Assembly: GCA_002269645.1 (NCBI GenBank)
Contig: NIVC01000389.1
Span: 44,665-108,664 of the forward strand
DNA length: 64,000 nucleotides
Direction of reading: 5' to 3'
Origin: Macrostomum lignano
Taxonomy: Eukaryota
The notes under the pieces are model-generated. The model did no database searches. It worked only from the letters and a program-made list of their open reading frames with translations, and had not been told where the DNA came from. Made by a program: the position numbers and the translations under genes. Shown piece after piece: positions 1 through 64,000 of the stretch; within the stretch, counting starts at the first letter, position 1, and every line of letters starts with the position of its first letter.

Positions 1-1813
1 ACGGCCGGCCAATCTCGCGGTCGGAGTTCGGGGAGCAGTTCTGGCGGCTGCACGACGATCTGACGGCTGCCACGGCGGCCACTTCCGGCTTTGAGTTCCC
101 GAGGTACTTCCGGTTTCTCACCTTCATGGCGCTGCGACTGTTTGTCGAACAGGCGGTGGACGTCGCCATCGTGGAGGTTGGCATCGGTGGGCGCTACGAC
201 AGCACGAACTTCATCAAAGAGCCGTGGGTGTGCGGCATCGCGTCGCTGGGACACGACCACACGGCGCTGCTGGGCGGCACGCTCGATAAAATTGCCTGGC
301 ACAAGGTGGGCTTAATAATAATAACAGTTGCAGTAGGGCTGCGGGCACCCTGATGCAACGCCTTCGGCGACATCGTTCCACAGCCAGCGGTGACAGCGTA
401 ATGCCTCTCGCCGGTTTTGTGACAATGTCGCTTAAAGTGCGCCAGGCCGGGTGCTCACAGCCCCTGGCTCTAATAATGAAATTGCCGAATATTACTAAGC
501 TAAGTGAGTTCCTAATGGCATTTAAACTCATCAATCCGCAGGCGGGCATCCTGAAGCCGGGCTGCATTGGCGTTACCTCGCCCGAACAGCCGGCCGAGTG
601 TCTGCCGGTGCTGGCCAGGGCGGCCGCGGCTGCCGGCTGCCCCATCCGGGTGTCGCCTCGCCTGACGGCCTTCGCCGGCTTCGAGCGTCTGGGCCTTGAC
701 GGCTACCAACAGCTGAATGCGGCTCTGGCGCTGCAGCTCGCTCGCCTGTGGCTTCGTCGGTACTCAGATGAGGCTGGCAGTGCTGGTAATAGATTTGAGC
801 CTTCCATCCGTGACGTCATCCGCTCTGTCAATGAAGATGACGTCAGTTTGAAAAACCTCTCTAAAAATTTCATACAATTTTCCAATAATGACCGCAATCG
901 CTGGACCTCCGCTAATGATAGCATCGTCAGCAGCCCAACGTCTTCCAATGGTGACGTCACAGATTCAGTTTCTAAAAATAGAGACGTTATACAGCTTGTA
1001 TCGCCGAATAATGACGTCATAGATCGAGTATCCACGAATGATGACGTTATAGATCTGAAATCAACTAATGGTGACGTCATAGATCCAGTATCAACTAATG
1101 GTGACGTCATAGATCCGGTATCAACTAATGTTGACGTCATAGATCCGGTATCAACTGATGGTGACGCCATAGAAGCACCGCGCACGCTGTCGATATTTGC
1201 TCTACCAGAAGCATTTGTTGACGCAATTTCGTCCACCCGCTGGCCGGGCAGGAACACCATCATCGTCAGGAAGGTGCCCACTGGTGACAGCTCCGAATGT
1301 ACCATCACCTTTTATATCGACGGAGCGCACACTATTGAAAGCTGTCCATTGGCTGGGGAATGGTTCTCCAAGTTGACATCCGGCTCGCCAGCAGTGGATG
1401 AGCGGGTGCTGATTTTCAATCGAACTGGGAATAGAAATCCCAATGAGCTGCTTGAGAGCTTGATCGGTGCTCGCAGTGGACAGTTTCCGTTACAATTTTC
1501 GGCCGGTCTGTTCTGTCCGAATCTCGTGGACGCTGAACCGGCCGCCCATCCGGAGCTGGTGAACCTGATGGTGTCGCCTGAAGCGGCCGAGACCGCTACA
1601 CAGCAGAATGCAAGCGCTTTCGCCTGTCTGATGCCGGCTGGCACAGAAACTGTTCAACTGTCTTGTCTTCGAGACGCTGTCGAATGGCTTCAATGCAGAG
1701 CGATGGCTGGACATCTTCGGTCTATTGCTGTGCTGGCAACTGGCAGTCTGCATCTGGTTGGCTGCCTGCTGGCCGTGCTGCAGCCTGAGGTGGCCGACGG
1801 TTGCGATGCTTGA
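1..1813 (+). CDS. FPGS: Folylpolyglutamate synthase, 3' part (5' end outside window); exons <3-305 and 542-1813, with a possible extra in-frame intron 786-1172
   Basis: Frame from base 3 reads ...PRYFRFLTFMALRLFVEQAVDVAIVEVGIGGRYDSTN...SLGHDHTALLG...IAWHK. A GT donor at 306 and a CAG acceptor ending at 541 join it to AGILKPG. Downstream motifs: QQLNAALALQL, TRWPGR, FYIDGAHT, C-terminal LATGSLHLVG. All are hallmark FPGS/FolC motifs. Confidence 0.95.
940..1170 (+). repeat. 30-bp degenerate tandem repeat (STNGDVIDPV) inside the FPGS reading frame
   Basis: Units such as TCAACTAATGGTGACGTCATAGATCCAGTA, about 6-7 copies, most containing TGACGTCA. Confidence 0.85.
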
Positions 1814-1831
1814 CTGTTAGGGATGGAGATC

Positions 1832-3806
1832 GTTGCATCCCCCATTCTTCACGTCCAAATCTTTGCATCCCCCATTCTTCACATCCAAATCTTTGCATCC
1901 CCCATTTTTCACGTCCAAATCTTTGCATCCCCCATTCTTCACATCCAAATCTTTGCATCCCCCATTTTTCACGTCCAAATCTTTGCATCTCCCATTCTTC
2001 ACGTCCAAATCTTTGCATTCCACATTCTTCACGTCCAAATCTTTGCACCCCCATTCTTCACGTCCAAATCTTTGCATCCCCCATTCTTCACGTCCAAATC
2101 TTTTCACCCCCCATTCTTCACGTCCAAATCTTTGCATCCCCCATTCTTCACGTCCAAATCTCCTCACCCCCCATTCTTCACGTCCAAATCTTTGCATCCC
2201 CCATTCTTCACGTCCAAATCTCTGCACCCCCCATTCTTCACGTCCAAATCTCTGCACCCCCCATTCTTCACGTCCAAATCTTTGCATCCCACAATCTTCA
2301 CGTCCAAATCTTTGCATCCCCCATTCTTCACGTCCAAATCTCTGCACCCCCCATTCTTCACGTCCAAATCTCTGCATCCCCATTCTTCACGTCCAAATCT
2401 TTGCATCCCCCATTCTTCACGTCCAAATCTCCTCACCCCCCATTCTTCACGTCCAAATCTCTGCATCCCCATTCTTCACGTCCAAATCTCCTCACCCCCC
2501 ATTCTTCACGTCCAAATCTCCTCACCCCCCATTCTTCACGTCCAAATCTTTGCATCCCCCATTCTTCACGTCCAAATCTCCTCACCCCCCATTCTTCACG
2601 TCCAAATCTTTGCATCCCCCATTCTTCACGTCCAAATCTTTGCATCCCACAATCTTCACGTCCAAATCTCTGCACCCCCCATTCTTCACGTCCAAATCTC
2701 TGCACCCCCCATTCTTCACGTCCAAATCTCTGCACCCCCCATTCTTCACGTCCAAATCTTTGCATTCCACATTCTTCACGTCCAAATCTCTGCACCCCCC
2801 ATTCTTCACGTCCAAATCTCTGCACCCCCCATTCTTCACGTCCAAATCTCTGCATCCCCATTCTTCACGTCCAAATCTTTGCATCCCCCATTCTTCACGT
2901 CCAAATCTCTGCACCCCCCATTCTTCACGTCCAAATCTCTGCATCCCCATTCTTCACGTCCAAATCTCTGCACCCCCCATTCTTCACGTCCAAATCTCTG
3001 CACCCCCCATTCTTCACGTCCAAATCTTTGCATCCCACAATCTTCACGTCCAAATCTTTGCATCCCCCATTCTTCACGTCCAAATCTCTGCACCCCCCAT
3101 TCTTCACGTCCAAATCTCTGCATCCCCATTCTTCACGTCCAAATCTTTGCATCCCCCATTCTTCACGTCCAAATCTCCTCACCCCCCATTCTTCACGTCC
3201 AAATCTCTGCATCCCCATTCTTCACGTCCAAATCTCCTCACCCCCATTCTTCACGTCCAAATCTCCTCACCCCCCATTCTTCACGTCCAAATCTTTGCAT
3301 CCCCCATTCTTCACGTCCAAATCTCCTCACCCCCCATTCTTCACGTCCAAATCTTTGCATCCCCCATTCTTCACGTCCAAATCTTTGCATCCCACAATCT
3401 TCACGTCCAAATCTCTGCACCCCCCATTCTTCACGTCCAAATCTCTGCACCCCCCATTCTTCACGTCCAAATCTCTGCACCCCCCATTCTTCACGTCCAA
3501 ATCTTTGCATTCCACATTCTTCACGTCCAAATCTCTGCACCCCCCATTCTTCACGTCCAAATCTCTGCACCCCCCATTCTTCACGTCCAAATCTCTGCAT
3601 CCCCATTCTTCACGTCCAAATCTTTGCATCCCCCATTCTTCACGTCCAAATCTCTGCACCCCCCATTCTTCACGTCCAAATCTCTGCATCCCCATTCTTC
3701 ACGTCCAAATCTCCTCACCCCCATTCTTCACGTCCAAATCTCCTCACCCCCCATTCTTCACGTCCAAATCTTTGCATCCCCCATTCTTCACGTCCAAATC
3801 TCTGCA
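1832..3806. repeat. Minisatellite A, 30-bp unit (29-bp variants) with a 745-bp higher-order duplication
   Basis: Consensus CCCCATTCTTCACGTCCAAATCTTTGCATC. Identical artefactual ORFs at 2582-2950 and 3327-3695 are offset by 745 bp. Confidence 0.97.
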
Positions 3807-5915
3807 TCCCACAATCTACACATCCCAAATCTTCACATTCCACCATCTACACATCCCAAATCTTCACATTCCACAATCTGCACATTCCACAATCTGCACA
3901 TCCCACAATCTTCACATCACAATCTTCACATTCCACAATCTTCACATCACAATCTTCACATTCCACAATCTTCACATCACAATCTTCACATTCCACAATC
4001 TTCACATCACAATCTTCACATTCCACAATCTTCACATCACAATCTTCACATTCCACATTCTTCACATCACAATCTTCACATTCCACAATCTTCACATCAC
4101 AATCTTCACATTCCACAATCTTCACATCACAATCTTCACATTCCACAATCTTCACATCACAATCTTCACATTCCACAATCTTCACATCACAATCTTCACA
4201 TTCCACAATCTTCACATCACAATCTTCACATTCCACAATCTTCACATCACAATCTTCACATTCCACAATCTTCACATCACAATCTTCACATTCCACAATC
4301 TTCACATCACAATCTTCACATTCCACAATCTTCACATCACAATCTTCACATTCCACAATCTTCACATCACAATCTTCACATTCCACAATCTTCACATCAC
4401 AATCTTCACATTCCACAATCTTCACATCACAATCTTCACATTCCACAATCTTCACATCACAATCTTCACATTCCACAATCTTCACATCACAATCTTCACA
4501 TTCCACAATCTTCACATCACAATCTTCACATTCCACAATCTTCACATCACAATCTTCACATTCCACAATCTTCACATCACAATCTTCACATTCCACAATC
4601 TTCACATCACAATCTTCACATTCCACAATCTTCACATCACAATCTTCACATTCCACAATCTTCACATCACAATCTTCACATTCCACAATCTTCACATCAC
4701 AATCTTCACATTCCACAATCTTCACATCACAATCTTCACATTCCACAATCTTCACATCACAATCTTCACATTCCACAATCTTCACATCACAATCTTCACA
4801 TTCCACAATCTTCACATCACAATCTTCACATTCCACAATCTTCACATCACAATCTTCACATTCCACAATCTTCACATCACAATCTTCACATTCCACAATC
4901 TTCACATCACAATCTTCACATTCCACAATCTTCACATCACAATCTGCACATTCCACAATCTTCACATCACAATCTTCACATCACAATCTTCACATCACAA
5001 TCTTCACATTCCACAATCTTCACATCACAATCTTCACATTCCACAATCTTCACATCACAATCTTCACATTCCACAATCTTCACATCACAATCTTCACATT
5101 CCACAATCTTCACATCACAATCTTCACATTCTACAATCTTCACATCACAATCTTCACATTCCACAATCTTCACATCACAATCTTCACATTCCACAATCTT
5201 CACATCACAATCTTCACATTCCACAATCTTCACATCACAATCTTCACATTCCACAATCTTCACATCACAATCTTCACATTCCACAATCTTCACATCACAA
5301 TCTTCACATTCCACAATCTTCACATCACAATCTTCACATTCCACAATCTTCACATCACAATCTTCACATTCCACAATCTTCACATCACAATCTTCACATT
5401 CCACAATCTTCACATCACAATCTTCACATTCCACAATCTTCACATCACAATCTTCACATTCCACAATCTTCACATCACAATCTTCACATTCCACAATCTT
5501 CACATCACAATCTTCACATTCCACAATCTTCACATCACAATCTTCACATCACAATCTTCACATTCCACAATCTTCACATCACAATCTTCACATTCCACAA
5601 TCTTCACATCACAATCTTCACATTCCACAATCTTCACATCACAATCTTCACATTCCACAATCTTCACATCACAATCTTCACATTCCACAATCTTCACATC
5701 ACAATCTTCACATTCTACAATCTTCACATCACAATCTTCACATTCCACAATCTTCACATCACAATCTTCACATTCCACAATCTTCACATCACAATCTTCA
5801 CATTCCACAATCTTCACATCACAATCTTCACATTCCACAATCTTCACATCACAATCTTCACATTCCACAATCTTCACATCACAATCTTCACATTCCACAA
5901 TCTTCACATCACAAT
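3807..5915. repeat. Minisatellite B, 30-bp unit (16+14 subunits), almost perfectly homogeneous and G-free on the + strand
   Basis: TTCCACAATCTTCACATCACAATCTTCACA, about 67 copies. Transition zone 3807-3900. Extra 14-mers at ~4981 and ~5549. Confidence 0.97.
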
Positions 5916-6534
5916 CGTCGGAAAGTTTTCTGTTTTCAATCGTGTCAAAAATTGAATTTAACAATAAAAATTAGCTATTTGCATTCTGAATTGCTGCCAA
6001 ATAGCATTTTACATGCATGTCTTTACCAGTAAATTTAAAGGCTAAAGTGCTTTATATGCTACTTTTATCATCTTAGAGATACGCCAGTATGTCAGCATTC
6101 GACATGCTTTGTTGTGGCTGTTGAAAATATCACTAATATTAATTCATGCAGCACTACTTTACAAGTAACTTATCTAATAAGCATTTTTATTGGATTTCTA
6201 ATTTTAATTGTATTGCTTTTGGCTATGCGTGTACTTTCCGATTTTTGTAGCAACTGTTTTTGTATTTTTTCACTCTTATTCAATATTCTTTAGTTAGTTG
6301 GATTTTTATGCTAGCAAGACCGAAAATCTTTTTATAAATTGACGGCAAGGAGTGATTTTTTGATATTTTATTTTTCAAAGAAAATTAAATCGCCTATAAT
6401 TGAACAAAATAATATTTGCTACTTATAGTAGGTTACTGTGTCTCTGAGTTCTTTCATCTTTTCTGTCTGCTAAGTTTAGAGTTAAGTAGAAGATGAGGGA
6501 CTTGAAACCTGTATAGTTGAGACAGAATGAGAAC

Positions 6535-51600: not shown

Positions 51601-53809
51601 CTTTGCCAGTCACAGGGACGACAAAAAGCGGATTGACATGGCACTTTCCAACTGCGGCTTGCTGTCAAAAAAGGTAAGCGACGAATTTTGTATTACATCG
51701 ACCTACTAAATATTATTGGCTGTTAAACTGGGAACGGGCAGACAATTTAGAGGAAATTTTCAAATCAAAATTATTTATCGCTATAGTTTATTCAGATTTT
51801 CAGCGCCTAAGGGTTTTTTCGAGGTACAAAAACGCAAGTATGCTCAGCGTCTGAGTCCGGATCACTTCACTGCCTGGAAGGACAGATGTGGCTCTATATT
51901 CGCCTCGTTCTCTGCTTTGGAATGAAACTTCCATATTTAGTATATGTAGACTAGCGCACTCAGCCCCCTATGAGGGCCTAGAATGAAGCCTAAAGTAGTA
52001 ACATTACAGAATTTCGCCACTGTGTAAACAAACCAACCACTAGAAGAAGTCCTTGTGCGTTAATTGATGTGTCAGTCTGTGCGTAAATTTGTAGAAGTAT
52101 TCAAAATTACACTACGACACTAAGGCAGGTCCTGAGACAGACAGGAACTTGAAACATTCTAATAAGACAGACATCCAGATGGAAGCTGAAAGACGCTAAG
52201 ACGAGAGACACAAGACAGATTGAAGAGCAGACACGTCCGGTTTGGAGCTGGGGGTGCACATGTTTGTCGATGAGAAGGCCCCTGAATACCCTATTGGAGT
52301 GTTTGCCCGCGTACCAAGGATCAGCGGAATGAGCATGGCTGGCTTCGAGTCAACTGTCGCCTTGTTTTTCGGCACTGTTCAAGGCCTTCCCTCGAACTGA
52401 CTATTTACGTGTTACAATAGACACTATTATGTTAAAAATACTAAATCGCACTAAGAAAGATGCAAAAGCAACCCAGAGTCTCTTACTTCGAGCCCGTGTA
52501 TATGATAATATGCTGGCTGCCTTTCTTAGAATTGGAATCCTCGTCAAAGCCGTTTCAGACCCAATCACGCCAATCACTCGCCGACCCTCCCGCTCGATCC
52601 CGGCAGAAGGATGCGGTGGATTCCAAACTGTTCGACATGCGCGCCTTCTTGAAGTTCTACGCCTGTTTAGCGCCGCGAGGTGACATTGACCAGATCTGCC
52701 AGGAGCTGTGAGCGATTTTTTTAACTACAGAAATCTTTCGTCTAGAAACAGTGCAGGTTCAATAGTCAGTTTCTACTGCTCAAATGTTTATGACCGAGAG
52801 ATCGAGCGGCATTTTCATCTCGATAAATTTCTCGACACATTCAGTAACTCTGGCTAATACACGAGCCGTTTAAGCATGCTTTTAGCGTTTCGGCTGAATC
52901 GTGTTGCAATAGGCTTTCACACCCCATAGACATGCGCGCTGTGCATATATAAATAGAAATATAGAAATGGATACCAATTTTTTGCGTCGCATAATACCGC
53001 AGAAAACATGCAAACTTTTACTAGTAGCAATCTTGCTCCCGCTAGCTGTGTCACTCAGACAGTGATAAAGAGAGAGCTGGCTAGAATTTAGGATGTGTTT
53101 CCCCAGTTCAGACTCTTCAAGCTGCCGCGTCACTTATCCACAATCCGCAGCCTCCACCCGCCTCTCTCCCCCTCCCTCATCTCCGGCTCTCCTTCCATCT
53201 GTTGAGCGTCTCACGAGAAAATGCCTCCTCAAAACTCGCTGCTCACAAAGGCATTCAGGGCAGCAGTTCTTGTACAGCCCGTCTGTCTGTCTTGCCTCAT
53301 TTCTCTACACTGCTCTGCTCAATGCCTAGATGGCAACAGATCTGCAATACAATAATGGATGGGACGACAGATTAGAAGGAAAATCGTGAACAGACTGTGC
53401 GACGGCAAAGTTGTGCAATGTACGGAACGGTGTTGAGATGTTTTTTGAGGTTTGTACTTTATCTGAAGAATGCAATGATGAAGATTTGGTATCATTCTGG
53501 CAGGAGGAGAATGGAGGGCCTGAGGGTACAATGGAGGGCAGATATATGGATGATTGACCCGCAATAACCTGAGATCAAAGTGCTCAAAGCCCCGGTAAAC
53601 TGACAAATTAGCCAACCCCTCCTTGTCCAGGAACCCGAGCTGCGCGTCGGACTCCAGGGCCTACATCAACATCGACCAGTTCATCCGACTGCTAAACGAA
53701 AAGCAACGAGACCCCAGGCTGAACGAGATTCTGTATCCCTACGCGAACGAGGCCAAGGCCAGGGAGCTCATTCAGAAGTTCGAGCCGGACAAGACGCTGA
53801 TTAACAAAG
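48633..53809 (+). CDS. PLCB: Phospholipase C-beta, N-terminal PH and EF-hand exons 48633-48731, 49017-49094, 50261-50329, 50412-50555, 51163-51296, 51589-51673, 52607-52707, 53631-53809; remainder beyond window
   Basis: MADAKPGIYASLLKHPNVSKQLIDGSKFLHWDD|..LRVDPKG..|..IRDTRTG...PK|D...|EWC...LATN...|...|...LAPRGDIDQI|...LLNEKQRDPRLNEILYPY. All junctions are GT-AG with matching phases. Exon layout resembles vertebrate PLCB1-4. Confidence 0.95.
48820..48980. repeat. 34-bp tandem repeat in PLC-beta intron 1
   Basis: CAGTGATCAGTTTGATTGAGCAGTCCTGAGCACA, about 4 copies. Confidence 0.88.
49840..50175. repeat. 23-bp C-rich minisatellite in PLC-beta intron 2 (G-run rich on the - strand)
   Basis: TACAGTACCCGCTACCCACCCCC, about 14 copies. 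Confidence 0.92.
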
Positions 53810-53999
53810 GTAAAAATAAAAACAGGGCGTTTGATTTCGGGAAGCAACTGGAAATGCTAAGACAGACGAGACGGCGGCATGGTTGGTGGCTTCTGAGCTT
53901 TGTGACAAATCAGGATCACAGTTAAGACACAGGGCGTACAGCGGCCCTGACTTTCTAATCGTCCGGAATGTCCACTCTCTGCGCATTGGGGGCTGGCTG

Positions 54000-54457
54000 G
54001 CAGACAGACAGACAGACAGGCACACAGACAGGAACACATACAGGCGCACAGACAGACAAACAGACAGGCACACAGACAGGCACACAGACAGACAAACAGA
54101 CAGGCACACAGACAGGCACACAGACAGACAGACAGACAGACACTCAGACAGACACTAAGACAGACACTCAGACAGACACTCAGACAGACACTCAGACAGA
54201 CACTCAGACAGACACTCAGACAGACACTCAGACAGACACTCAGACAGACACTCAGACAGACATTCAGACAGACATTCAGACAGACACTCAGACAGACATT
54301 CAGACAGACACTAAGACAGACACTCAGACAGACACTCAGACAGACACTCTGACAGACACTCAGACAGACACTCAGACAGACACTCAGACAGACACACAGA
54401 CAGACAGACAGACAGACACTCAGACAGACACTCAGACAGTCACTCAGACAGACATTC

Positions 54458-54530
<73 letters not shown>

Positions 54531-55530
54531 CTCTGACAGACACTCAGACAGACATTCAGACAGACATTCAGACAGACACTCAGACAGACACTCAGACAGA
54601 CACTCAGACAGACACACAGACAGACACTCAGACACACACTAAGACAGACACTCAGACAGACACTCAGACAGACACTCAGACAGACACTCAGACAGACACT
54701 CAGACAGACACTCAGACAGACACTCAGACAGACATTCAGACAGACACTCAGACAGACGTTCAGACAGACACTCAGACAGACACTCAGACAGACACTCAGA
54801 CACCCAGACAGACACCCAGACAGACACCCAGACAGACACTCAGACAGACACTCAGACAGACACTCAGGCAGACACTCAGACAGACACCCAGACAGACACT
54901 CAGACAGACACTCAGACAGACAGTCAGACACCCAGACAGACACTCAGACAGACACTAAGACAGGCTCACAGACAGACACTCAGACAGACACTCAGACAGA
55001 CCCTCAGACAGACACTCAGACAGACACACAGACAGACACTCAGACACACACTAAGACAGACACTCAGACAGACACTCAGACAGACACTCAGACAGACACT
55101 CAGACAGACACTCAGGCAGACACTCAGACAGACGTTCAGACAGACACTCAGACAGACACTCAGACACACACTAAGACAGACACTCAGACAGACACTCAGA
55201 CAGACACTCAGACAGACACTCAGACAGACACTCAGACAGACACTCAGACAGACACTCAGACAGACACACACACACTAAGACAGACACTCAGACAGACACT
55301 CAGACAGACACTCAGACAGACACTCAGACAGACACTCAGACAGACACTCAGACAGACACACAGACAGACACTCAGACACACACTAAGACAGACACTCAGA
55401 CAGACACTCAGACAGACACTCAGACAGACACTCAGACAGACACTCAGACAGACACTCAGACAGACACTCAGACAGACACACAGACACTCAGACAGACACT
55501 CAGACAGACACTCAGACAGACACCCAGACA
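54000..55530. repeat. (CAGA)n-derived 12-bp array in PLC-beta intron 8
   Basis: CAGACAGACACT, about 120 copies, mixed with pure CAGA runs. Confidence 0.96.
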
Positions 55531-56239
55531 GAGCCAGCGTATGCCTGCCAGATAAAATCTGAGCCAGCCAATCCCCCAGGGGCTCTTGAAACCAAGGAAG
55601 ACAGGAGAAAGGGTAAAATGGGGAGATGGCCGGCAGAGAAAAGAAGAGAAAGGCTTCTTAAATCCCCGGCTTCCCCTTTCTCTCCCCAGTCCATCTCATC
55701 GATTCCAGACCTAAGCTAGTCGTCATCTTTGGTGTGTGAGCACGTACTCAACACTGTTTGAACAGGGACCTTTCCTGAGCTCCTTCCCAATTCGCACCGT
55801 TCCCCTCCTCCGCAAGTCCGTCTCGTTTTCCCCTCCCGGATCCTCAATGTCGGGAGCGCGTTTCTCCCCCACCCAGCCACAGCTCATTTTCCTACTTATA
55901 TTTCTTTTCCCTGGGCAATGGCTGGGTGGCAAGTCGCGGGCCGCTGAGCAAAAAGAGATGAAAAAACGAGGGCCGGCATCTCGGAACCCCCCCCCCCGTT
56001 CTCCAGCGGTTTTCGAGTGATTTCGCGACGTGTTTTTTATATTTGAAAATAATATATGAATCCGCTAACACGGAATGGCGACTGGCTTCTGACTGGCTGG
56101 TTTTTGTGGGAATTGGAGTGATGCAGTAAGTGTGCTTGCGGTATTGTTGAGCAGGAAACCTGAACGGGCTTTAATTTTGTATAGGTTTTTTGAAGGTAAA
56201 CTGCTTTATTTCAATGAATTTCGATGATTTGATAGTATT

Positions 56240-56465: not shown

Positions 56466-56481
56466 ATGTTAATCTAATTGA

Positions 56482-58691
56482 TGTAACCGCCCTTGTCGCC
56501 TGTCCGCTCCGTAGAGAGACGAACGCATGGCTAGAGGGGGCAATGACCGTAGGCTGCCTAGGACCGGGCAATGACCTGACGGACCTCCAGCACCAGACTG
56601 TCCCGCCCACATGATTAGTAGCTTTGGTAGCGCTTCGTGACCAGAGGGCCAAGGACCCACATGGACCCCACCTGTAGCCAAGGTGCAATAGTTGGTCACT
56701 CGGTCATGGTATGACCGAGTGGCTGCCACCACTCTATGTGACCTGGCGCACCTGGATCTTTCTACCAGACCTCTCGAGGCTAGAGCCCCGCCTGGATTGG
56801 TTACCAGGGGATTTAGGCTAACAGGGGAGACGCATGCAGCCGAGTACAGGGACTCTGCTTGGGGCATGATCGGGAACTCTGGGCTCAATCCTGGAGGATT
56901 TCTCAGCAGGGGATCCTTTGTGGCTGTGAGCGAGGCTGACTTGCGACTTTGATTACTAAGAGTAGTATGAGGCGAACATGTACTATCTACAGTTTAGATT
57001 GCTCAGGGCGAAGGGACGCGTTAGCATGGGGTTGCAACCTTCCTACTGCCATTCTGTGCCAAGACTCGCTAATCCCTCTACTGCACGCACACGCGGCCCC
57101 GCAGCACGCACTCACAGGCGGGCTGTGCACGGGGAGAGGCCATTAGCTTACCCAAACTTCCTTATGCTTTGCCACCCCGGGGAAAGGCTTAGCAAGCCAT
57201 GAGTGAAATGATGGTGAAAGATTGAATAATGATGAAGTTAGTTAATAGTTAATAATTAGGCCCTTAGGCAAATAAGCAGGCAATTAGGCGGCTTCACTAT
57301 TGAGTAAAATACAGCAAAAGATACGGTATCACAATTGGCTCAGCTCTCTAATCAGACAATGGAAAATAGGCAAACCCCGGATAAGCAAAGGCAATTAGAG
57401 CACAAATTAGTAGCAGGAACTTACCGGCAGCTGCACAGAGAGAGAGAGAGGCGGAGTGACCGAGGGCGGCTGTAGGCTGCAGTCAGGCAGACGGTGAAGC
57501 GGCGATGCGCTGGAGCGACGAGGCGCTGATGTAGATCAGGCGATGCTGATGATGCTGGGCGGTATCAGACCGCTGGCCGATAGGCGAGCTCACTTGGGGA
57601 GCTAAGGATAACTTGGCGGTAACAGACCGCGGACCGGCAGGGATTCGTCTTATAGACGAATGGGTCAGAACTCAATCTGACAGCAAGTCCAAAGAAGGAC
57701 GAGGAGAGGAACAGAGATAAACTCAGTTGAGTATTCTCATGCCGAAATCGCTTCCTTTTATAGACCTCACAGCCGCCTCCTCAAGGTCGTTACCATGGCT
57801 CCCTCTCTCTGATTGGCTGCCGGCAGAATGACGTCAGAATGAGTCATGATGAGAAGCATGAGACCGGCATAGCAACATGAGAAATCGGGAAATTGCGCAA
57901 TCCGGAGGTGGGGTGGGGGGATAATTGGCGCAGCGGGTGGTCGCGAAAGTGTTGCGCAAGCAAACATTGAGAACAATAGGGCTGGGGTCGAGAACAAAGG
58001 AATTGGAAATCGGGGATAATTGGGGAAAACTGAGAACAATGGAAAAGTAAACATTGGAGAAAAGGTGATAATTAGGTGCGAAAACGAGAACAAAAGAAAG
58101 AGAAAATCGGAGAAAATGTGATAATTGGTGGGGGTCGAGAGAACAAAAGAAGCAAAAACGAGAACAATAGAAGCGGAGGTGGGGTGGGTGTCACATGAGA
58201 AATTTGGGAAGGAGAACAATAGCGTGAGAAAAGGTTGCGCAAGAGAGGGGGATGAGTCATCGATGAGTCACCGAGGGGGAGAAGGGGTCACACGACTTGC
58301 GTCACCGTTTGGGAGTTTGAGAGGGGATGGGGAGACGGTGAGCACACAAAGTACTGTAAGTAGACACAGGGAAAGAGGGGACAGCGCAGGAAAAGAGTGC
58401 AGAGGGAGACAAAAAAAGGAGGAAGTAGAGAAAGTACAGGAAGAATAGGGCGGGAACAGAAGAGATAGGGTAGAGGGGGAGGTACAGAAAGGGGTAGGGG
58501 CTCCGGAAAGGCAGGTGTGGCGGCAGGAGAGACGGGACCAAGGCAGCAGGAGGGGTGCAGCAGAGCGGGAGTCTCCAGGCCCGGTCGGAGACCTGGCCGA
58601 GTCTCGACAGCTCTGTGCAGAGGGTGCACGGGATAGGAGGCACTTTCGAAAAAGTTCCCATGCCCTATCCCGCGACCAGAGCGTGGTTACA
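56482..58691 (-). mobile_element. 3' LTR (2210 bp) of a Ty3/Gypsy-type retroelement, antisense to PLC-beta
   Basis: Ends TGTAACC...GGTTACA (7-bp inverted termini). On the - strand it is immediately preceded by the purine-rich PPT AAAAGGCAGTGGGGGTGTGA (58692-58711). Internal promoter cluster and TATA are on the - strand. Confidence 0.72.
57755..57846 (-). promoter_or_regulatory. LTR U3 promoter cluster: AP-1, CRE, CCAAT, TATA
   Basis: TGAGTCA 57840-57846, TGACGTCA 57829-57836, CCAAT (ATTGG on +) 57812-57816, TATAAAAG (on -) 57762-57755. Order is correct for - strand transcription. Confidence 0.65.
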
Positions 58692-59297
58692 TCACACCCC
58701 CACTGCCTTTTGTGACGGAACTGGTTCCGTCATCATCACTGCCCAACATGGAACCACACAGACGGGAGCGGGATCTCAACCGAACGTGAAATCACAGAAT
58801 TAACAAACCGCGAGCGGGAATGGAAAAAGGCGATAAAATAGAGGGATAGCAATAAATTCACAAAACGAGATACATAGGTTGGAGTGCAATACAGAATTTC
58901 AAAAATTTCAACTGTTGCTGTGGCTAAAGTGGGAGGGGGGAAACACAGACAGCGCAATAGTAGGGAGAAAAATAGCGAATTGTCAACAATAAATTATCAT
59001 AATTGGATAGAAGCGCAGCTGGGAAAGAGAGGAAACGGGGAAGGGTGAGGGAAGTGGGGAAAAAGAAGGGGGGAAGGGTTGCTAGCACACAGCCAAGGGC
59101 AGAGCCTCGGGAGAATGACGATTACACAGGGGAAAAATACTAATGCAGCGCAGTAAATTAATAAGCTAATTTCGCCGGGAGTTCAACCGCACGGAGGCCT
59201 AGCGTCCTTGAAGGCTCGGACCCCGCTTCAGCCAGTCAGAGGGCTTCGGGGCGATCGGTTGTAGGCTGGGAGGCGCCGCGCCGTGCGCTGGCCACTG

Positions 59298-59410
59298 TAT
59301 AAAAGGCGCCACTGATAACGGGAGCCGGCTGCCTGCAACCTACACGGAGTCGCAGTTTCCAACCAAGGCACTCAGCGCGATTTTCCAAACTATACAACTA
59401 CTCGGTAAGT
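59298..59410 (+). promoter_or_regulatory. Candidate internal antisense promoter and first exon of the retroelement
   Basis: TATAAAAG at 59298-59305 after a GC-rich stretch; consensus donor G|GTAAGT at 59405. Confidence 0.4.
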
Positions 59411-59751
59411 CCCATCACCAACCTGATTTCCTTTCGCCTATACGTTAAACGAAATCTACCCACTCGCCATGCCTTTCGTTTTAAACTGAGCCAATTGCAG
59501 TAATAATATATGGCCTTTCTTACGGTAAAAGTAGTGAGCAGCCACACAGAGCCATTTTTAGGAATTTTTAGAATAATGACACAACAATGACTCGTATATT
59601 GGTTATTAAAGTTTAAAAATGAATATTATGGAAGAACCGAATATTAATAGGATAATTTCACACACACACACACGACAAACACACAACGCAAGGGGGCGGA
59701 AAGGCGGGTCGGACCGGCCGGCGGACGTCGCTCAGCAGGCAGTCAGCATCC

Positions 59752-61221
59752 TTACTCGAAATGGGCCTCTTGATTTAGCTGGTACGGGCCATATGCCGCC
59801 ACCTGAGCCATGGCACTTGCCCATGCTTCCACATAACGTTGGGCTGCCGCGGCCGTGAGCACCACTCGGTGCCATCGGCTAGGCAAGATGTCGTTGCGCA
59901 GCACGCCCCTCAACTGCGGCAGAGTCGGGATGCCCAGGGCTTGGCATTGGACGACGAAGGCCGCATTCCGTACTTGTTGCAGCCGTGTCAGAGTTGGTGC
60001 AGACAGGGGCGGCTGCGCGATTGCAAAATGCTGCAAAGTGCCACGGGGCACCTCGGCCAGGCCCGCGTAGCCGGGCTCAACGTCGCCCAGGGCCGCCAAC
60101 ACCCACCCACAGCGGCGATTGAACCGTTGCGAGAGAGTGGCGGCCCAGGCCACTGTGGCAAACGGCGCATAGAGGAGGGGCGCAGAGGCCGGCGCGGAGG
60201 CCGCAAGAATGCCGTCGTGGATGACGAGAGCCTCTTCCCATTCGGCGCCCTCGCTCAGGAAGCCCCAGAGCAGCCCTGGCAGGTCCGCAGGAAGCATGCC
60301 CCAGCGGCTGGCCAAGCTGGCCAGGCCAATCAATAGCCGGGCTCTCTGGGTTGGCGTCAGTTGTCTAGTCATCTGAGAGGAGGCTGCGCAGCTGATGATC
60401 ACCTTCTTGTAGACCGGCCGATCGCAGGTGCTGAAGATTGCTGTGATGGGGGCACAGGACGGCGGCCGGGCTGTCAGGTGTGATGGTTCCTCATCCACAA
60501 CCTTGCGGAGGAACTTGGCGGCCTGCCGGACTAGGTCGCCGAGGGCGTATTTGTAGGCGCTCTGGGCCGCTGCCTCGATGTACATTAACAGCGTATTGTC
60601 AACCAATCCCAGCAGGGCCGCTTTTGACAGGATGAGCAGACAGGGCCGGTCCAGGTTGTCGCGAAGTTGGCGCTCTAGAGTCGCATGCCTGTCCTCGGCC
60701 TGGAGTGGGCCATGATAGGACTCAGGCCCGACCCAGTGCACCAGATCCATAGCTGTCGCCGAAGGTTCGCCAGCCACCTGACCCCAATCGACTTCTTCTC
60801 TTTGCAGGGCGATGTCCACACTTCGGCGGCTGTTGGGCAGAACATCACGCAGGCGGCGGCGCCGCCTCGCCGAATTCGGCCGCCATGTCCGAAATGTCCG
60901 CGGTGTCGCCCCCAGCATTGGCCGGGTCGATTGTCTCGTCACCTTCTTCGACCCTGGCGGAGGCCGCCGCTGGCGGCTCGGGGCCGTCCTCCGCCTCTTG
61001 GATGGCGTCACGGGGCCGCTTTCGGCTAACTGGGCTGGCAGGACGCTCAGACGGTAAGCTGGAGCATAGCTGAATTCGATTGATGGTAGGCTTCGTGTCC
61101 ATGTCAAGCTGGATAGTTCATAGAATGCTTCAGCGATTGAAGGACAGAATGATTTCTCTGATTGATGATTTCCAGCTCTGGCAGGCGTGGGTCTTCTTAT
61201 AGTGCCGGGGCTGGCTTCCAT
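59752..61221 (-). CDS. Orphan accessory ORF (up to 489 aa) inside the LTR element; true N-terminus may be the frameshifted 61102-60845 frame
   Basis: 1.47-kb open frame, non-repetitive, globular-looking C-terminal ~370 aa. No RT, RNase H, integrase or Env-like motifs recognised. An overlapping frame gives the acidic, NLS-bearing MDTK...RKRPR. Confidence 0.6.
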   Translation of the reverse strand: MEASPGTIRRPTPARAGNHQSEKSFCPSIAEAFYELSSLTWTRSLPSIEFSYAPAYRLSVLPAQLAESGPVTPSKRRRTAPSRQRRPPPGSKKVTRQSTRPMLGATPRTFRTWRPNSARRRRRLRDVLPNSRRSVDIALQREEVDWGQVAGEPSATAMDLVHWVGPESYHGPLQAEDRHATLERQLRDNLDRPCLLILSKAALLGLVDNTLLMYIEAAAQSAYKYALGDLVRQAAKFLRKVVDEEPSHLTARPPSCAPITAIFSTCDRPVYKKVIISCAASSQMTRQLTPTQRARLLIGLASLASRWGMLPADLPGLLWGFLSEGAEWEEALVIHDGILAASAPASAPLLYAPFATVAWAATLSQRFNRRCGWVLAALGDVEPGYAGLAEVPRGTLQHFAIAQPPLSAPTLTRLQQVRNAAFVVQCQALGIPTLPQLRGVLRNDILPSRWHRVVLTAAAAQRYVEAWASAMAQVAAYGPYQLNQEAHFE

Positions 61222-62956
61222 TGGTTGAGCACATTGGGAGGCACACCTGCTGCGGCCGGGGTCGCCGTTGGCTTGGGACCGCTCGCTCTAGTCTCCGTGC
61301 GCTCTGATTGGCTGGTTCCGCCGCTTCCTGTTTCCTCACCTGTGAGCAGGGGGCAGACCCGAGACCACCTCCGGTCGCGCCCGCGGCAGATCCGTACTCC
61401 AGCCGACAGAGATCGCACTCCCACCTCACATGCACACATTCAGATCAGGCACACAAATTAATTTGGTTAATATGAATAGAAGAGGGATTTGGGAGATTAG
61501 ACTCCGGAGGATAAATGATGATGCGGCCCAACTCCCTTCGATTTCTTCCTTCAACGCCACGCGCACGCAGTTCTCATCCATGCCTCCGAGACCCTCATAA
61601 ACTTAACAGCCGAAAGAATTCGAAAGAGGAATTAATCATTAATTTGACTGCCACCAGTTTGATGTACTATTATAAAAGAGAAAGGGGAACCTACCACCAT
61701 CTTGGCGCATTACCAAAGAAAAGAAAAGGAGGATCAGCCACCATTTTGAGAGAGGTTGCTAGGGAAAACTGCCACCAATTGCCCTTCTACCAGAGGAGAG
61801 GAAGACGAAAAACTGCCATCCTTAGAGGTGTATCATTAAAAGAAGGCGGGGAAGAAGGCTACCACTACTTGATCACCTAGAGCTCAAGGAAGGAGAGGGA
61901 ATGAAGAAAGGAAGAAACCCCCAGGAAGGCCACTACCACACGCCATAAAGTTAAAATCCCCATCTATCTACATCCTAATACCCGGCTAGTTCCCTACTTC
62001 TATTTCATCCCTTAAATTCTCATTTTCAGGATTCCGGCCGCTAGTAGCCGAGCCCATCCTTGAAGAGGAGTCCGACTACGAAGCGCCCGAAGACAGCCAT
62101 TCAGAGCCGGACGCCCCCTGATTCTGGGCCGGCTGCGCCATCTGGTGACATAGGCGCCGCGGCTCCCGGGCCATGCGACCGCCGGGCCGCCAGCGAACCA
62201 GCGTCCGGGGCCGGTTGGCATCCGGTACCACCGCCGTTGTCAGCCCGAGCGCACGCTCCGCCGCCGGTCGCCGCGGTGACGCCCGTGGCTGCCGCTCCAC
62301 AGCCCTTGCCAACCCCTGTGGTGGAGACCGACGGCTCCTGGCATTTGGTCGTGCTGTCGACGGCCCTAATAGCCGGTCTCACAATGCACTGGCTACTGCT
62401 CTTGGAGCTATTTCTGCGGCTTCCCAACTGCTGATGCTGGTGGTTCTTAATGCTTACTTACTAATTCTGAACTATCTGTCCCATAACTTGACTTTAATTA
62501 CTTACCTGACTTTACATTGACTAAACCACTGGCCTACTCTAAACTAATTGCTGCCCCATTTGCCTGATAAACTTAATTACATTGAATGCCCCCCCCTATT
62601 GCCTCATCGAAACCAATTAAAAGTTTCCCAAAATCGGACTTTCACAAAGTGTGAACAAACACACGAAATCAGACCTAAAGGTGCTAATTTCCTACGGTCC
62701 CAGACTTCCCTTGTTCCCAGAAAATCTTAAACAGCGGGGCAGGACCTCCTGTGGAGCAGACCCATAGAAGCTAAGAGCTAAAATCTTAGATATTTAAACA
62801 ACACCAACGAGCACGAGGTCACAACATAAATTCGAGTAATAGAGGGCATACGTAAATACGCGAAAAGCGGTCTCCAACGGGGCAACACGAGCAAAATTTC
62901 GACACGCGAATCGGGGGGGGAATTAAGCAATCACTGGCTAGCTACCGATCTGTTAC

Positions 62957-63290
62957 TCAGCGGGGGTCGAATGGGAGACTCACACCTAGCAAGTAAACCT
63001 TTTCTGTTCGATAGTCTATGATAGCATGCGTACTGGCTAGAAAAGCACTACCCAGGAGGGAAACTGCTGCTGAATTGCCAACGACCAGAAAGAGGATTCT
63101 CACCTCTTCTAGCCCAATAACTGCTGTGAGGGTGGCCTGGCCTAGCATCTCTAATTCATTGCCCGTGTAGGACACGGCCTTCACACATGGGGGCTCCAGG
63201 GCCTCCACACTCTGTCCGGTAATTTTAGTAAAGTCTTTGACTGTTAGCAAAGACAGCGCACTGCCCCATCTACCAGGAGGCGGGTGGGAA
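62957..63290 (-). pseudogene. Retropepsin (aspartic protease) remnant
   Basis: LLVD/GSALSLL (one-base shift at the active site) followed by the LLGSAFLASTHAIIDYRTEKVYL flap/ILG-like motif. Stop right after; no RT follows. Confidence 0.75.
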
Positions 63291-63594
63291 CATTCTCAAT
63301 TGGCAACTCTACAACAATATCTCTCCCGCGTTGTCCTCTAGCTGGTCTTGGCTGATAGAAATCGGTACCTTCTCAAATCTAAACTTCTTGCTGGGCGGAC
63401 GTGGCAGGTTAAGCTGGGCCCTAGAGAGGGAACGGGGCTGAGTTCGGGCCGGGCCATTCAGCCCTCCCACGGGTTTCCCGAACCCGGGGCTCTTCAGGCG
63501 TGGAAGGAGGAGGCATCAGAGCTTGCGCGCGCAGCTGGGAGCCTCTCCTGCCTCTCCCTGGTAGCCTCGTCTAACATATCTCTGCCCCACTCCT

Positions 63595-64000
63595 CTAAAT
63601 CTTGCCTATGGCGATCAGGTGGCGCACGAAGCTGCAATTGCTGCTGCTGCACACCCGGCGCCGGCGGCGTGGGCGCCTCCTGAATTGCAAGCGGCGGGGG
63701 CTGGGGTTGGCGCCAGTTCCACTGCTATTAGAGCCGCCCTGCCCCTGCCTCCAGTTCCTGTTGGGAGTGGCGGGGCGAGGGGGCCTCATCTGCTGGGGCA
63801 GCTGGGCAACAGACTCTGCTGTCGCCTTCATAGTTTCATTGAGCTGCACCAGCTGGTTGCGCAGATCCTTTTGCGTTTGCTCTAGCGCGCCCAACCTCTC
63901 TTGCATCTCTGATAGGCCGTCACCGTCCTCCTCGCGTCTCGTCAGCTTCCTGGTTCACCATCCTGACCACTTGCGAGGGGGCCTGGTGTGGCTGCTGAGG
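63595..64000 (-). pseudogene. Gag-like remnant (coiled-coil plus R/G-rich C-terminal part), continues beyond window
   Basis: MQERLGALEQTQKDLRNQLVQLNETMK...RNWRQGQGG, located directly upstream of the protease on the same strand; frameshifted. Confidence 0.5.

What the first reader, a model, noticed from the sequence alone, without database searches (positions are those of the whole stretch)
56482..64000. Pol-less LTR retroelement carrying a large orphan ORF in the env position
Seen on the - strand: gag-like and protease relics, a non-coding stretch where RT/RNase H/integrase should be, a 489-aa non-repetitive ORF (61221-59752), a PPT, then a 2.2-kb LTR with TGTAACC/GGTTACA ends. Established: animal Gypsy elements with a third ORF normally encode Env-like fusogens with a signal peptide and TM helix. 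This ORF shows neither obviously and has an NLS-like RKRPR in its probable N-terminal frame. Inference: a non-autonomous (TR-GAG/LARD-like) element that keeps an uncharacterised accessory protein.
Basis: partly seen in the sequence, partly recalled or inferred. Interest (0 to 1): 0.7.

Follow-up and report, generated by a model that had tools for sequence, protein, structure and literature searches.

The report
Retrotransposon split into two halves
This is one half of a jumping gene that is split in two: it carries the capsid, the protease and a conserved protein of no known family, while a partner with near-identical ends carries the copying and inserting enzymes but no protease, so each likely needs the other to move.

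Summary
The pol-less element is real. The contig ends at 64000, but sister copies show a 13-kb element: near-identical 2.2-kb LTRs, PBS-Leu, 4-bp TSD, gag, a protease behind a -1 slippery site, ORF3, PPT. ORF3 is 449 aa (the 489-aa frame comes from a frame break in this copy), open in 16 copies, dN/dS 0.10, not Env-like, with no family or fold match; 22-30% homologues exist. A 10-copy partner shares the LTR, 2.3-kb leader, gag start and 3' UTR at about 99% and encodes capsid-RT-RNase H-integrase, but has no protease; 20 of 20 other Gypsy ORFs tested from this genome have one. The same split pair occurs in a second family with unrelated LTRs. The two RT-bearing halves form one clade, and so do the two protease-bearing halves. 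Best reading: an old two-component LTR retrotransposon whose halves complement each other in shared particles (inferred, 0.7). A spliced antisense ORF is also under selection. One-way dependence is known (wheat Sabrina/WHAM, rice Tos17); I found no two-way split in the library searched.

The parts
63458..64000 (-). 3' half of gag (481 aa in a whole copy; capsid-like domain, coiled coil, no CCHC knuckle); cut by the contig end; several frame breaks in this copy
   Evidence: breaks at the places listed table 4
63473..63479 (-). Slippery heptamer G GGA AAC in phase, followed by a predicted hairpin; predicted -1 frameshift from gag into the protease frame
   Evidence: -1 frame open 174 codons through the protease in 6 of 8 copies; family 2 has G GAA AAC plus hairpin at the same place; position
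62957..63336 (-). Retropepsin-type protease (DGG at the catalytic motif; DSG in family 2), ending in a stop with no pol behind it
   Evidence: (50.9 bits on a profile from 32 relatives)
62030..62434 (+). Antisense exon 2: 134 codons in most copies, acidic then Pro/Ala-rich, hydrophobic C-terminal stretch
   Evidence: pN/pS 0.23, 0 stops; KD19 2.02
61054..62029 (+). GT..AG intron on the strand opposite to gag/ORF3; donor lies 48 nt inside ORF3
   Evidence: joint in 3 of 4 runs; 0 exact matches to the joined form in G000; donor kept in the diverged copy; GTGAG at the like place in 3 of 3 family-2 loci
61197..61311 (-). CCAAT boxes and a TATAA motif upstream of ORF3: possible internal promoter (weak inference)
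   Evidence: CCAAT at -210 and -123 kept in the diverged copy, not seen on this strand in family 2
59752..61102 (-). ORF3, 449 aa in whole copies; frame break near 60860 in this copy; soluble, predicted mostly helical, no known family
58712..59751 (-). 3' untranslated region; the part from about 59525 to the LTR is shared with the RT-bearing partner
58695..58711 (-). Polypurine tract
56479..58694 (-). 3' LTR, 2216 bp, TGATGT...ACATCA, with CCAAT (57816) and TATAAA (57762); 0.4% from the LTRs of the RT-bearing partner

Best explanation
The window holds the gag-protease-ORF3 half (B) of a Ty3/Gypsy LTR retrotransposon whose capsid-RT-RNase H-integrase half (A) lies elsewhere in the genome with the same LTRs and leader but no protease, and the two halves likely complement each other in shared particles. 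Shown: anatomy of both halves, the reciprocal gaps, the shared shell, recent insertion of both, and the same split in a second family. Inferred: identical LTRs would co-express A and B; B would supply bulk Gag and, by -1 frameshift, the protease; A's single capsid-Pol protein would co-assemble through its own capsid domain, be cut by B's protease and copy and integrate both RNAs, which carry the same PBS, leader and PPT; template switching in mixed particles would keep the shell alike. The split likely arose once, by duplication of a whole element and reciprocal loss at the protease boundary. ORF3 is most likely a soluble accessory factor that works in trans (regulator or anti-silencing protein; about 0.5 for that role), not a fusogen, and is dispensable in cis.
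For: Shared shell: A and B match 99.1-99.2% over about 4.8 kb (LTR, PBS, leader, first gag codons) and 97.9-99.0% over 3.05 kb (3' UTR, LTR); identity steps down from complete through about 70% to none across the gag start. LTR divergence A-B 0.38% (180 pairs) against B-B 0.41% (66 pairs), with shared polymorphisms; an older B copy is 2.75% from all. A lacks protease: no D[ST]G or DGG[ASC] motif in P0010 or P0011; a profile from 32 relatives scores about 50 bits on B1 and B2 and at most 6.4 bits in six frames of 16 of 17 A loci, the 17th hit lying in an unrelated inserted element, and nothing in 9 further A loci; in a profile of the region before RT, B's protease fills positions 78-193 and A begins at 200-211; 20 of 20 other Gypsy ORFs of this genome have the protease. 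B lacks pol. A is mobile all the same: 10 copies at 100% over 1 kb of pol, 4-bp TSDs in 3 of 3 copies with both ends. Second pair: A2/B2 share their own LTR and leader, alike with family 1 only around the PBS. Trees: A1+A2 RT 100/100, B1+B2 protease 99; capsids of A and B form one clade, A1+A2 95. Selection: ORF3 dN/dS 0.10 in both families; family-2 protease pN/pS 0.09 in 3 of 4 comparisons. PBS matches tRNA-Leu genes of the genome.
Against: No biochemical or genetic test: complementation is read from anatomy. Complete Gypsy families with their own protease are abundant in the genome and 6 of 20 loci fetched show the same Leu PBS, so A could borrow a protease, and B an RT, elsewhere. A and B capsid domains are only 22-27% identical, so co-assembly is not assured. 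B1's protease has DGG in place of D[ST]G and its activity is untested; it met Pfam only weakly (E 0.0079). The capsid tree came from a profile seeded with the four A/B sequences and carries long-branch warnings; the protease and capsid trees are quick trees. Family-2 A rests on two near-whole copies. 9 of 41 database relatives also lacked my protease motif (not looked into). A complete element of this lineage missing from the assembly is not excluded. ORF3's role has no positive evidence; its RKRP motif is not kept in P0007 or P0008.
Confidence: 0.7

Rival explanations
1. One-way parasitism: B is an ordinary non-autonomous rider on A, and A needs no protease from B because it gets one from other Gypsy families or the host, or works uncut.
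For: Many protease-bearing Gypsy families are in the genome, some with the same PBS; B outnumbers A about five to one (52 protease matches at 96% or more; 10 A copies), as riders often do.
Against: B keeps exactly the domain that A lacks, open, behind a conserved frameshift site and under selection, in both families; only B shares A's promoter and leader; the loss in A is clean and older than the family 1/2 divergence. That Ty3-type RT and integrase need protease processing is recalled, not tested.
Confidence: 0.2
2. A and B are both defective derivatives of a complete master element that the assembly has collapsed or lost.
For: The assembly is fragmented and many contigs end inside the element; the LTR search found 664 candidates of which 40 were scored.
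Against: A and B capsids are 22-27% identical and each groups with its counterpart in family 2, so they are not recent deletions of one master; all 10 matches to A's pol belong to the A type, 9 testable for protease and none has it; loose ends in read contigs at the gag junction lead into B sequence only.
Confidence: 0.05
3. B has been kept by the host for ORF3 or Gag function (domestication in progress) rather than for the element's own cycle.
For: Strong purifying selection on ORF3 over dS 1.4; old ORF3 alleles sit in young shells; contigs of RNA-like runs cover it.
Against: ORF3 was found only inside mobile copies or their remains, is absent from 10 B copies examined, and no stand-alone host copy turned up; selection at this level is expected of element genes between insertions.
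Confidence: 0.05

Closest known systems
Wheat RLG_Sabrina_SA and RLG_WHAM with RLG_Wilma (PMC9744471; passages read)
   Same: Gypsy elements that encode only GAG plus protease, share the PBS with an RT-bearing partner, co-evolved for a long time; some Sabrina variants carry orphan ORFs; described as a cooperative complex.
   Different: Wilma is called autonomous with the complete canonical set (the passages read do not single out its protease) and shares almost no sequence with its riders; here the partner lacks the protease and shares about 99% of LTR, leader and 3' UTR. ORF3 comes in addition to gag-protease, not in its place. Animal host.
Rice Tos17 with Lullaby (PMC3977881; part 1 of 2 of the text read)
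   Same: An active RT-bearing element with a clean loss of an essential domain that must come in trans.
   Different: Copia; gag is lost and the proposed donor is a complete element, so dependence is one-way; similarity limited to the internal sequence and PBS.
Soybean SARE/SNRE LTR swapping (Du et al. 2010; title seen in a reference list; text not held; content recalled)
   Same: Autonomous and non-autonomous partners exchange LTRs by recombination.
   Different: As recalled, the autonomous partner is complete.
TR-GAG elements (PMC4350172; abstract read)
   Same: Non-autonomous, GAG kept, recently active.
   Different: Under 4 kb with a single GAG ORF; this element is 13 kb with protease, ORF3 and an antisense ORF.
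Plant Retand elements with antisense extra ORFs (PMC11963269; abstract read)
   Same: Gypsy elements with extra ORFs, some antisense, before the 3' LTR; a regulatory role is proposed.
   Different: No TRP28 or other Pfam match for ORF3; the antisense ORF here is spliced; Retand extras follow pol.
Env-bearing Gypsy elements (errantiviruses; PMC13524379, one passage seen)
   Same: A third ORF before the 3' LTR.
   Different: ORF3 has no signal-peptide-like start, no shared TM-like stretch, 0-1 N-glycosylation sequons, and the element has no pol.

Membership tests
Ty3/Gypsy LTR retrotransposon | Two LTRs with TG..CA ends, PBS, PPT, short TSD | tested here: met
   Sister copies: 5' and 3' LTRs 0.05-0.4% apart, PBS-Leu, PPT, 4-bp TSD in 3 of 4 B copies with both flanks
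Ty3/Gypsy LTR retrotransposon | pol in the order RT - RNase H - integrase | tested here: met
   Met by the partner A only; absent from B
Ty3/Gypsy LTR retrotransposon | Assignment to a named clade (Mag, CsRN1, Gmr1/Osvaldo) | not tested
   No named reference set on hand; A1+A2 form their own long branch among 29 RT rows
Autonomous LTR retrotransposon (partner A) | Own aspartic protease between gag and RT | tested here: not met
   controls 20 of 20
Semi-autonomous GAG-protease elements (Sabrina/WHAM type) | GAG and protease kept, RT and integrase absent, PBS shared with an RT-bearing partner | tested here: met
Semi-autonomous GAG-protease elements (Sabrina/WHAM type) | Partner is a complete autonomous element with little shared sequence | tested here: not met
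   Partner lacks protease and shares about 99% of the shell
TR-GAG | Under 4 kb, single GAG ORF | tested here: not met
   13,069 bp with gag, protease, ORF3; definition
LARD | Long internal region without coding capacity (definition recalled) | tested here: not met
   Open ORFs under purifying selection
Env / errantivirus third ORF | Signal peptide, C-terminal TM anchor, glycosylated cysteine-rich ectodomain | tested here: not met
   Hydropathy only (no dedicated predictor): first 25 windows at most 0.49; maxima 1.32-1.71 at unaligned places; 0-1 sequons; 2-7 cysteines, in 5 homologues
Env / errantivirus third ORF | Fold of a class I, II or III fusogen | tested here: inconclusive
   Models of mean pLDDT 54.7 and 62.6, mostly helical; no match with E up to 0.001 or Z of 8 or more
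Two-component (mutually dependent) element | Each half fails to move without the other | not testable with these tools
   Needs knock-down or biochemistry

The most novel reading that the evidence does not exclude
An obligately two-component (segmented) LTR retrotransposon in an animal: an ancestor split at the protease boundary into a capsid-RT-integrase element and a Gag-protease-ORF3 element, which have stayed mutually dependent through at least one deep family divergence (A1/A2 RT 70% identical, LTRs unrelated) while swapping a common shell, and the structural half carries a new family of accessory proteins plus a spliced antisense gene.
Probability: 0.65. Interest if true: 0.9.

Novelty: new variant of a known kind. 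Interest (0 to 1): 0.8.

Why it matters
Known helper/rider pairs are one-way: one partner is complete. A reciprocal split would be a retroelement counterpart of a segmented virus, would show that cooperation between selfish elements can be stable over long times, and gives a testable case of setting the Gag:protease:Pol ratio by copy number and not by one frameshift. It also marks a blind spot: RT-seeded surveys would count A as complete (RT, RNase H, integrase, LTRs) and never seed on B. ORF3 is a selected protein family with no known relatives or fold.

Tried and rejected
ORF3 identity: Pfam none; PDB sequences only E about 1; word-seeded protein searches none for P0001 and P0008 (near-length proteins only); full HMMER search gave 3 hits, two real homologues (P0004, P0006, unnamed Logan proteins) and one repeat-protein hit rejected as spurious (P0005); viral and metagenome contig scans none; Atlas gave no result; fold searches gave only generic helical matches, best Z 6.0-6.2, which shows neither a new fold nor absence of relatives. 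ORF3 next to a complete pol: at G000:C100 near 603-609 kb a protease-bearing pol lies upstream of a family-2 ORF3, but it matches another family (L149, 88-90%) that ends about 2 kb before ORF3 and has no ORF3 itself, so it is read as a nested insertion. Family-2 gag pN/pS of 0.82 was dropped: the two frames were mis-anchored (2 stops, pN 0.52). Expression: no holder is on record as RNA; depths of contigs were not used to rank A and B; A-specific sequence had cover in X1 (patchy), X15 and X19 and none in X9, which proves nothing either way. Genomic deletion as the cause of the 976-nt joint: no exact match in G000 (exact pattern, incomplete assembly). Literature: searches listed no paper on a protease-less RT element paired with a gag-protease element; the library lacks most subscription papers and Repbase was not on hand. 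PMC12801592 (passages and sections 6, 14 read) has no mention of protease or non-autonomous elements and seeds on RT; its supplementary family tables were not read and may list A's domain structure. Earlier scan notes: none by sequence or words; the 8 shown of 47 by place concern gag-env-pol elements.
Full report
Observation. The minus strand of 56479-64000 reads gag (3' half), protease, a 1.85-kb spacer, a long ORF, 3' UTR, PPT and a 2216-bp LTR. The contig G000:C389 ends at 64000, so I studied sister copies. A DNA search with the ORF gave 38 matches: 33 at 97% or more over at least 600 bp, 2 at 76%, 3 short. Whole copies are 13 kb, with 5' and 3' LTRs 0.05-0.4% apart, ends TGATGT...ACATCA, a 4-bp TSD in 3 of 4 copies with both flanks, and a PBS complementary to tRNA-Leu genes of the genome. 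A 2.3-kb leader precedes a 481-aa gag. A pol profile finds nothing in six frames of 9 B-type stretches and over 1000 bits in 2 controls. The host is likely the flatworm Macrostomum lignano: an RT of another family in G000 (L151) has branch length 0 to a public protein so named.

ORF3. Natural copies hold a 449-aa ORF from 61102 that includes RKRPR; it is full-length and open in 15 near-identical copies and one copy at 77%. dN/dS is 0.10 (bootstrap 0.07-0.14; dS 1.45), 0.07 in the body, against 0.71-1.21 in control frames. Homologues: unnamed Logan proteins at about 30% and, at 22%, the ORF in the same slot of a second pol-less family in this genome, also at dN/dS 0.10. Shared residues centre on H.G..A and YAP...WA. 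No Pfam, PDB or viral-structure match; models are mostly helical with mean pLDDT 54.7 and 62.6. Hydropathy gives no signal peptide and no shared TM stretch, so it is not Env-like. Ten B copies lack it, 8 with one shared junction: it is not needed in cis. I read it as a soluble accessory factor acting in trans; the role is inferred and has no direct support.

Gag and protease are not relics. 52 matches at 96% or more to the protease were listed (150 of 987 candidates scored). An in-phase G GGA AAC heptamer with a hairpin opens a 174-codon -1 frame through the protease in 6 of 8 copies; family 2 has G GAA AAC and a hairpin at the same place, in that frame in 5 of 6 loci. The family-2 protease has pN/pS 0.09 in 3 of 4 comparisons, the fourth having only 3 changes. 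The frame breaks of the window copy are not in short-read contigs and may be assembly errors.

The partner. Weak gag hits (27%) in long ORFs led to elements that share with B the LTR, PBS, leader and gag start (99.1-99.2% over about 4.8 kb) and the 3' UTR and LTR (97.9-99.0% over 3.05 kb), but hold one 1542-aa ORF with capsid, RT, RNase H and integrase. There are 10 copies at 100% over 1 kb of pol, with TSDs in 3 of 3 copies with both ends. At the 5' junction identity is complete for 44 codons, about 70% for some 35 more, then lost, as repeated template switches would leave. Among 37 LTRs, A-B distance (0.38%) equals B-B distance (0.41%) and polymorphisms are shared, while an older B copy is 2.75% away. 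Family 2 has its own RT-bearing partner with its own shell; the shells of the two families match only over 38 bp around the PBS.

The partner has no protease. Neither A protein has a D[ST]G or DGG[ASC] motif. A profile from 32 database relatives scores 49.6-50.9 bits on B proteases and at most 6.4 bits in 16 of 17 A loci; the hit in L116 lies in an unrelated element inserted in integrase. Nine further A loci gave none; one of the 10 A1 copies is cut by its contig end before the site. In a profile of the stretch before RT, B's protease covers positions 78-193 and A starts at 200-211, whereas all 20 control ORFs start at 16-72 and run through, and 20 of 20 carry the protease. The two halves thus meet at the protease boundary. 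A1 and A2 RTs (70% identical) form a clade at 100/100; B1 and B2 proteases at 99 (quick tree); the four capsids group together with A1+A2 at 95, with long-branch warnings and a profile seeded on them. Cores follow type, shells follow family.

Antisense gene. Contigs of 3 of 4 RNA-like runs, from three studies, skip 61054-62029, GT..AG on the plus strand, opposite to gag; the joined form has no exact match in G000. The donor lies 48 nt inside ORF3, is kept in the diverged copy although the ORF3 residues change, and a GTGAG stands at the like place in family 2. Exon 2 is open for 134 codons in most copies, pN/pS 0.23 with no stops (shadow frame 0.32, 2 stops), and ends in a hydrophobic stretch. 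Family 2 has an antisense ORF of about 200 codons in the same slot (pN/pS 0.37, shadow frame 0.46 with 7 stops) without that stretch. The runs are only guessed to be RNA and contigs give no strand; start codon and function are open.

Mechanism. Shown: reciprocal domain content, common shell, recent insertion of both halves, repeat of the pattern in a second family, selection on ORF3, protease and the antisense exon. Inferred: co-expression from identical LTRs; B gives Gag and, by frameshift, protease; A's capsid-Pol, which has no frameshift of its own in the two A1 copies with a single 1553-codon frame, joins the particle, is processed and copies both RNAs; switching between co-packaged RNAs keeps the shell alike. 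That Gypsy Pol needs its protease is established knowledge recalled, not tested. Main rival: A borrows a protease from one of the many complete families, some with the same PBS, and B is a plain rider (0.2).

Comparison. It works like wheat Sabrina_SA/WHAM (GAG-protease only, shared PBS, orphan ORFs; PMC9744471, passages), but their partner is described as complete and shares little sequence. Tos17 lacks gag and leans on a complete element (PMC3977881, part 1 of 2). It fails TR-GAG (PMC4350172, abstract) and LARD (recalled). A survey of LTR elements of the likely host seeds on RT and counts RT, RNase H and integrase as complete; its main text does not mention protease (PMC12801592; supplements not read). 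Ten searches listed no reciprocal split, within a library that lacks most subscription papers.

Verdict. Real, and more interesting than first read: a new variant of helper/rider pairs that may be the first two-way one. Interest 0.8; probability 0.65 for obligate two-component replication, which would deserve 0.9.

Noticed in passing
G000:C598, C2790, C181, C3058, C2146, C3228, C546, C2503, C2291, C237 (L076-L085): B copies without ORF3; 8 share one junction sequence, so an ORF3-less subfamily has spread while keeping the protease and, in 7 of 10, the open antisense exon.
   Followed up: partly
G000:C100:356192-369227 (L022, L023): Mosaic copy: LTR, gag and protease 96-99% like young copies, ORF3 only 77% (dS 1.4), so ORF3 alleles move as modules between shells.
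   Followed up: partly
G000:C3095, C1757, C621 (L106, L107, L115): Family-2 RT-bearing copies keep the last 36-39 codons of ORF3 right behind pol, a trace of recombination with the B half.
   Followed up: partly
G000:C254:427000-427271 (L026): The 5' LTR is preceded by the element's own 3' UTR and PPT: a tandem array sharing one LTR.
   Followed up: no
window 62769-62775: This copy lacks 68 bp that sister copies and contigs of 4 of 4 runs have.
   Followed up: no
G000, (e.g. C566, C1237, C1651): Dozens of older protease fragments at about 80% identity and 664 LTR candidates point to further deleted derivatives and many solo LTRs.
   Followed up: no
L074:1323-2658, L075:1195-2530: An unrelated element with an integrase-like ORF is inserted just upstream of ORF3 in at least two B copies.
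   Followed up: no
L122:1-8500 region and L123:5028-8497: ORFs resembling a Maverick/Polinton-type element (polymerase-, ATPase- and integrase-like; label recalled, not tested) flank a family-2 copy.
   Followed up: no
window 1751-6000 and 53800-55560: Long simple tandem arrays (30-bp unit; CAGA-type microsatellite).
   Followed up: no
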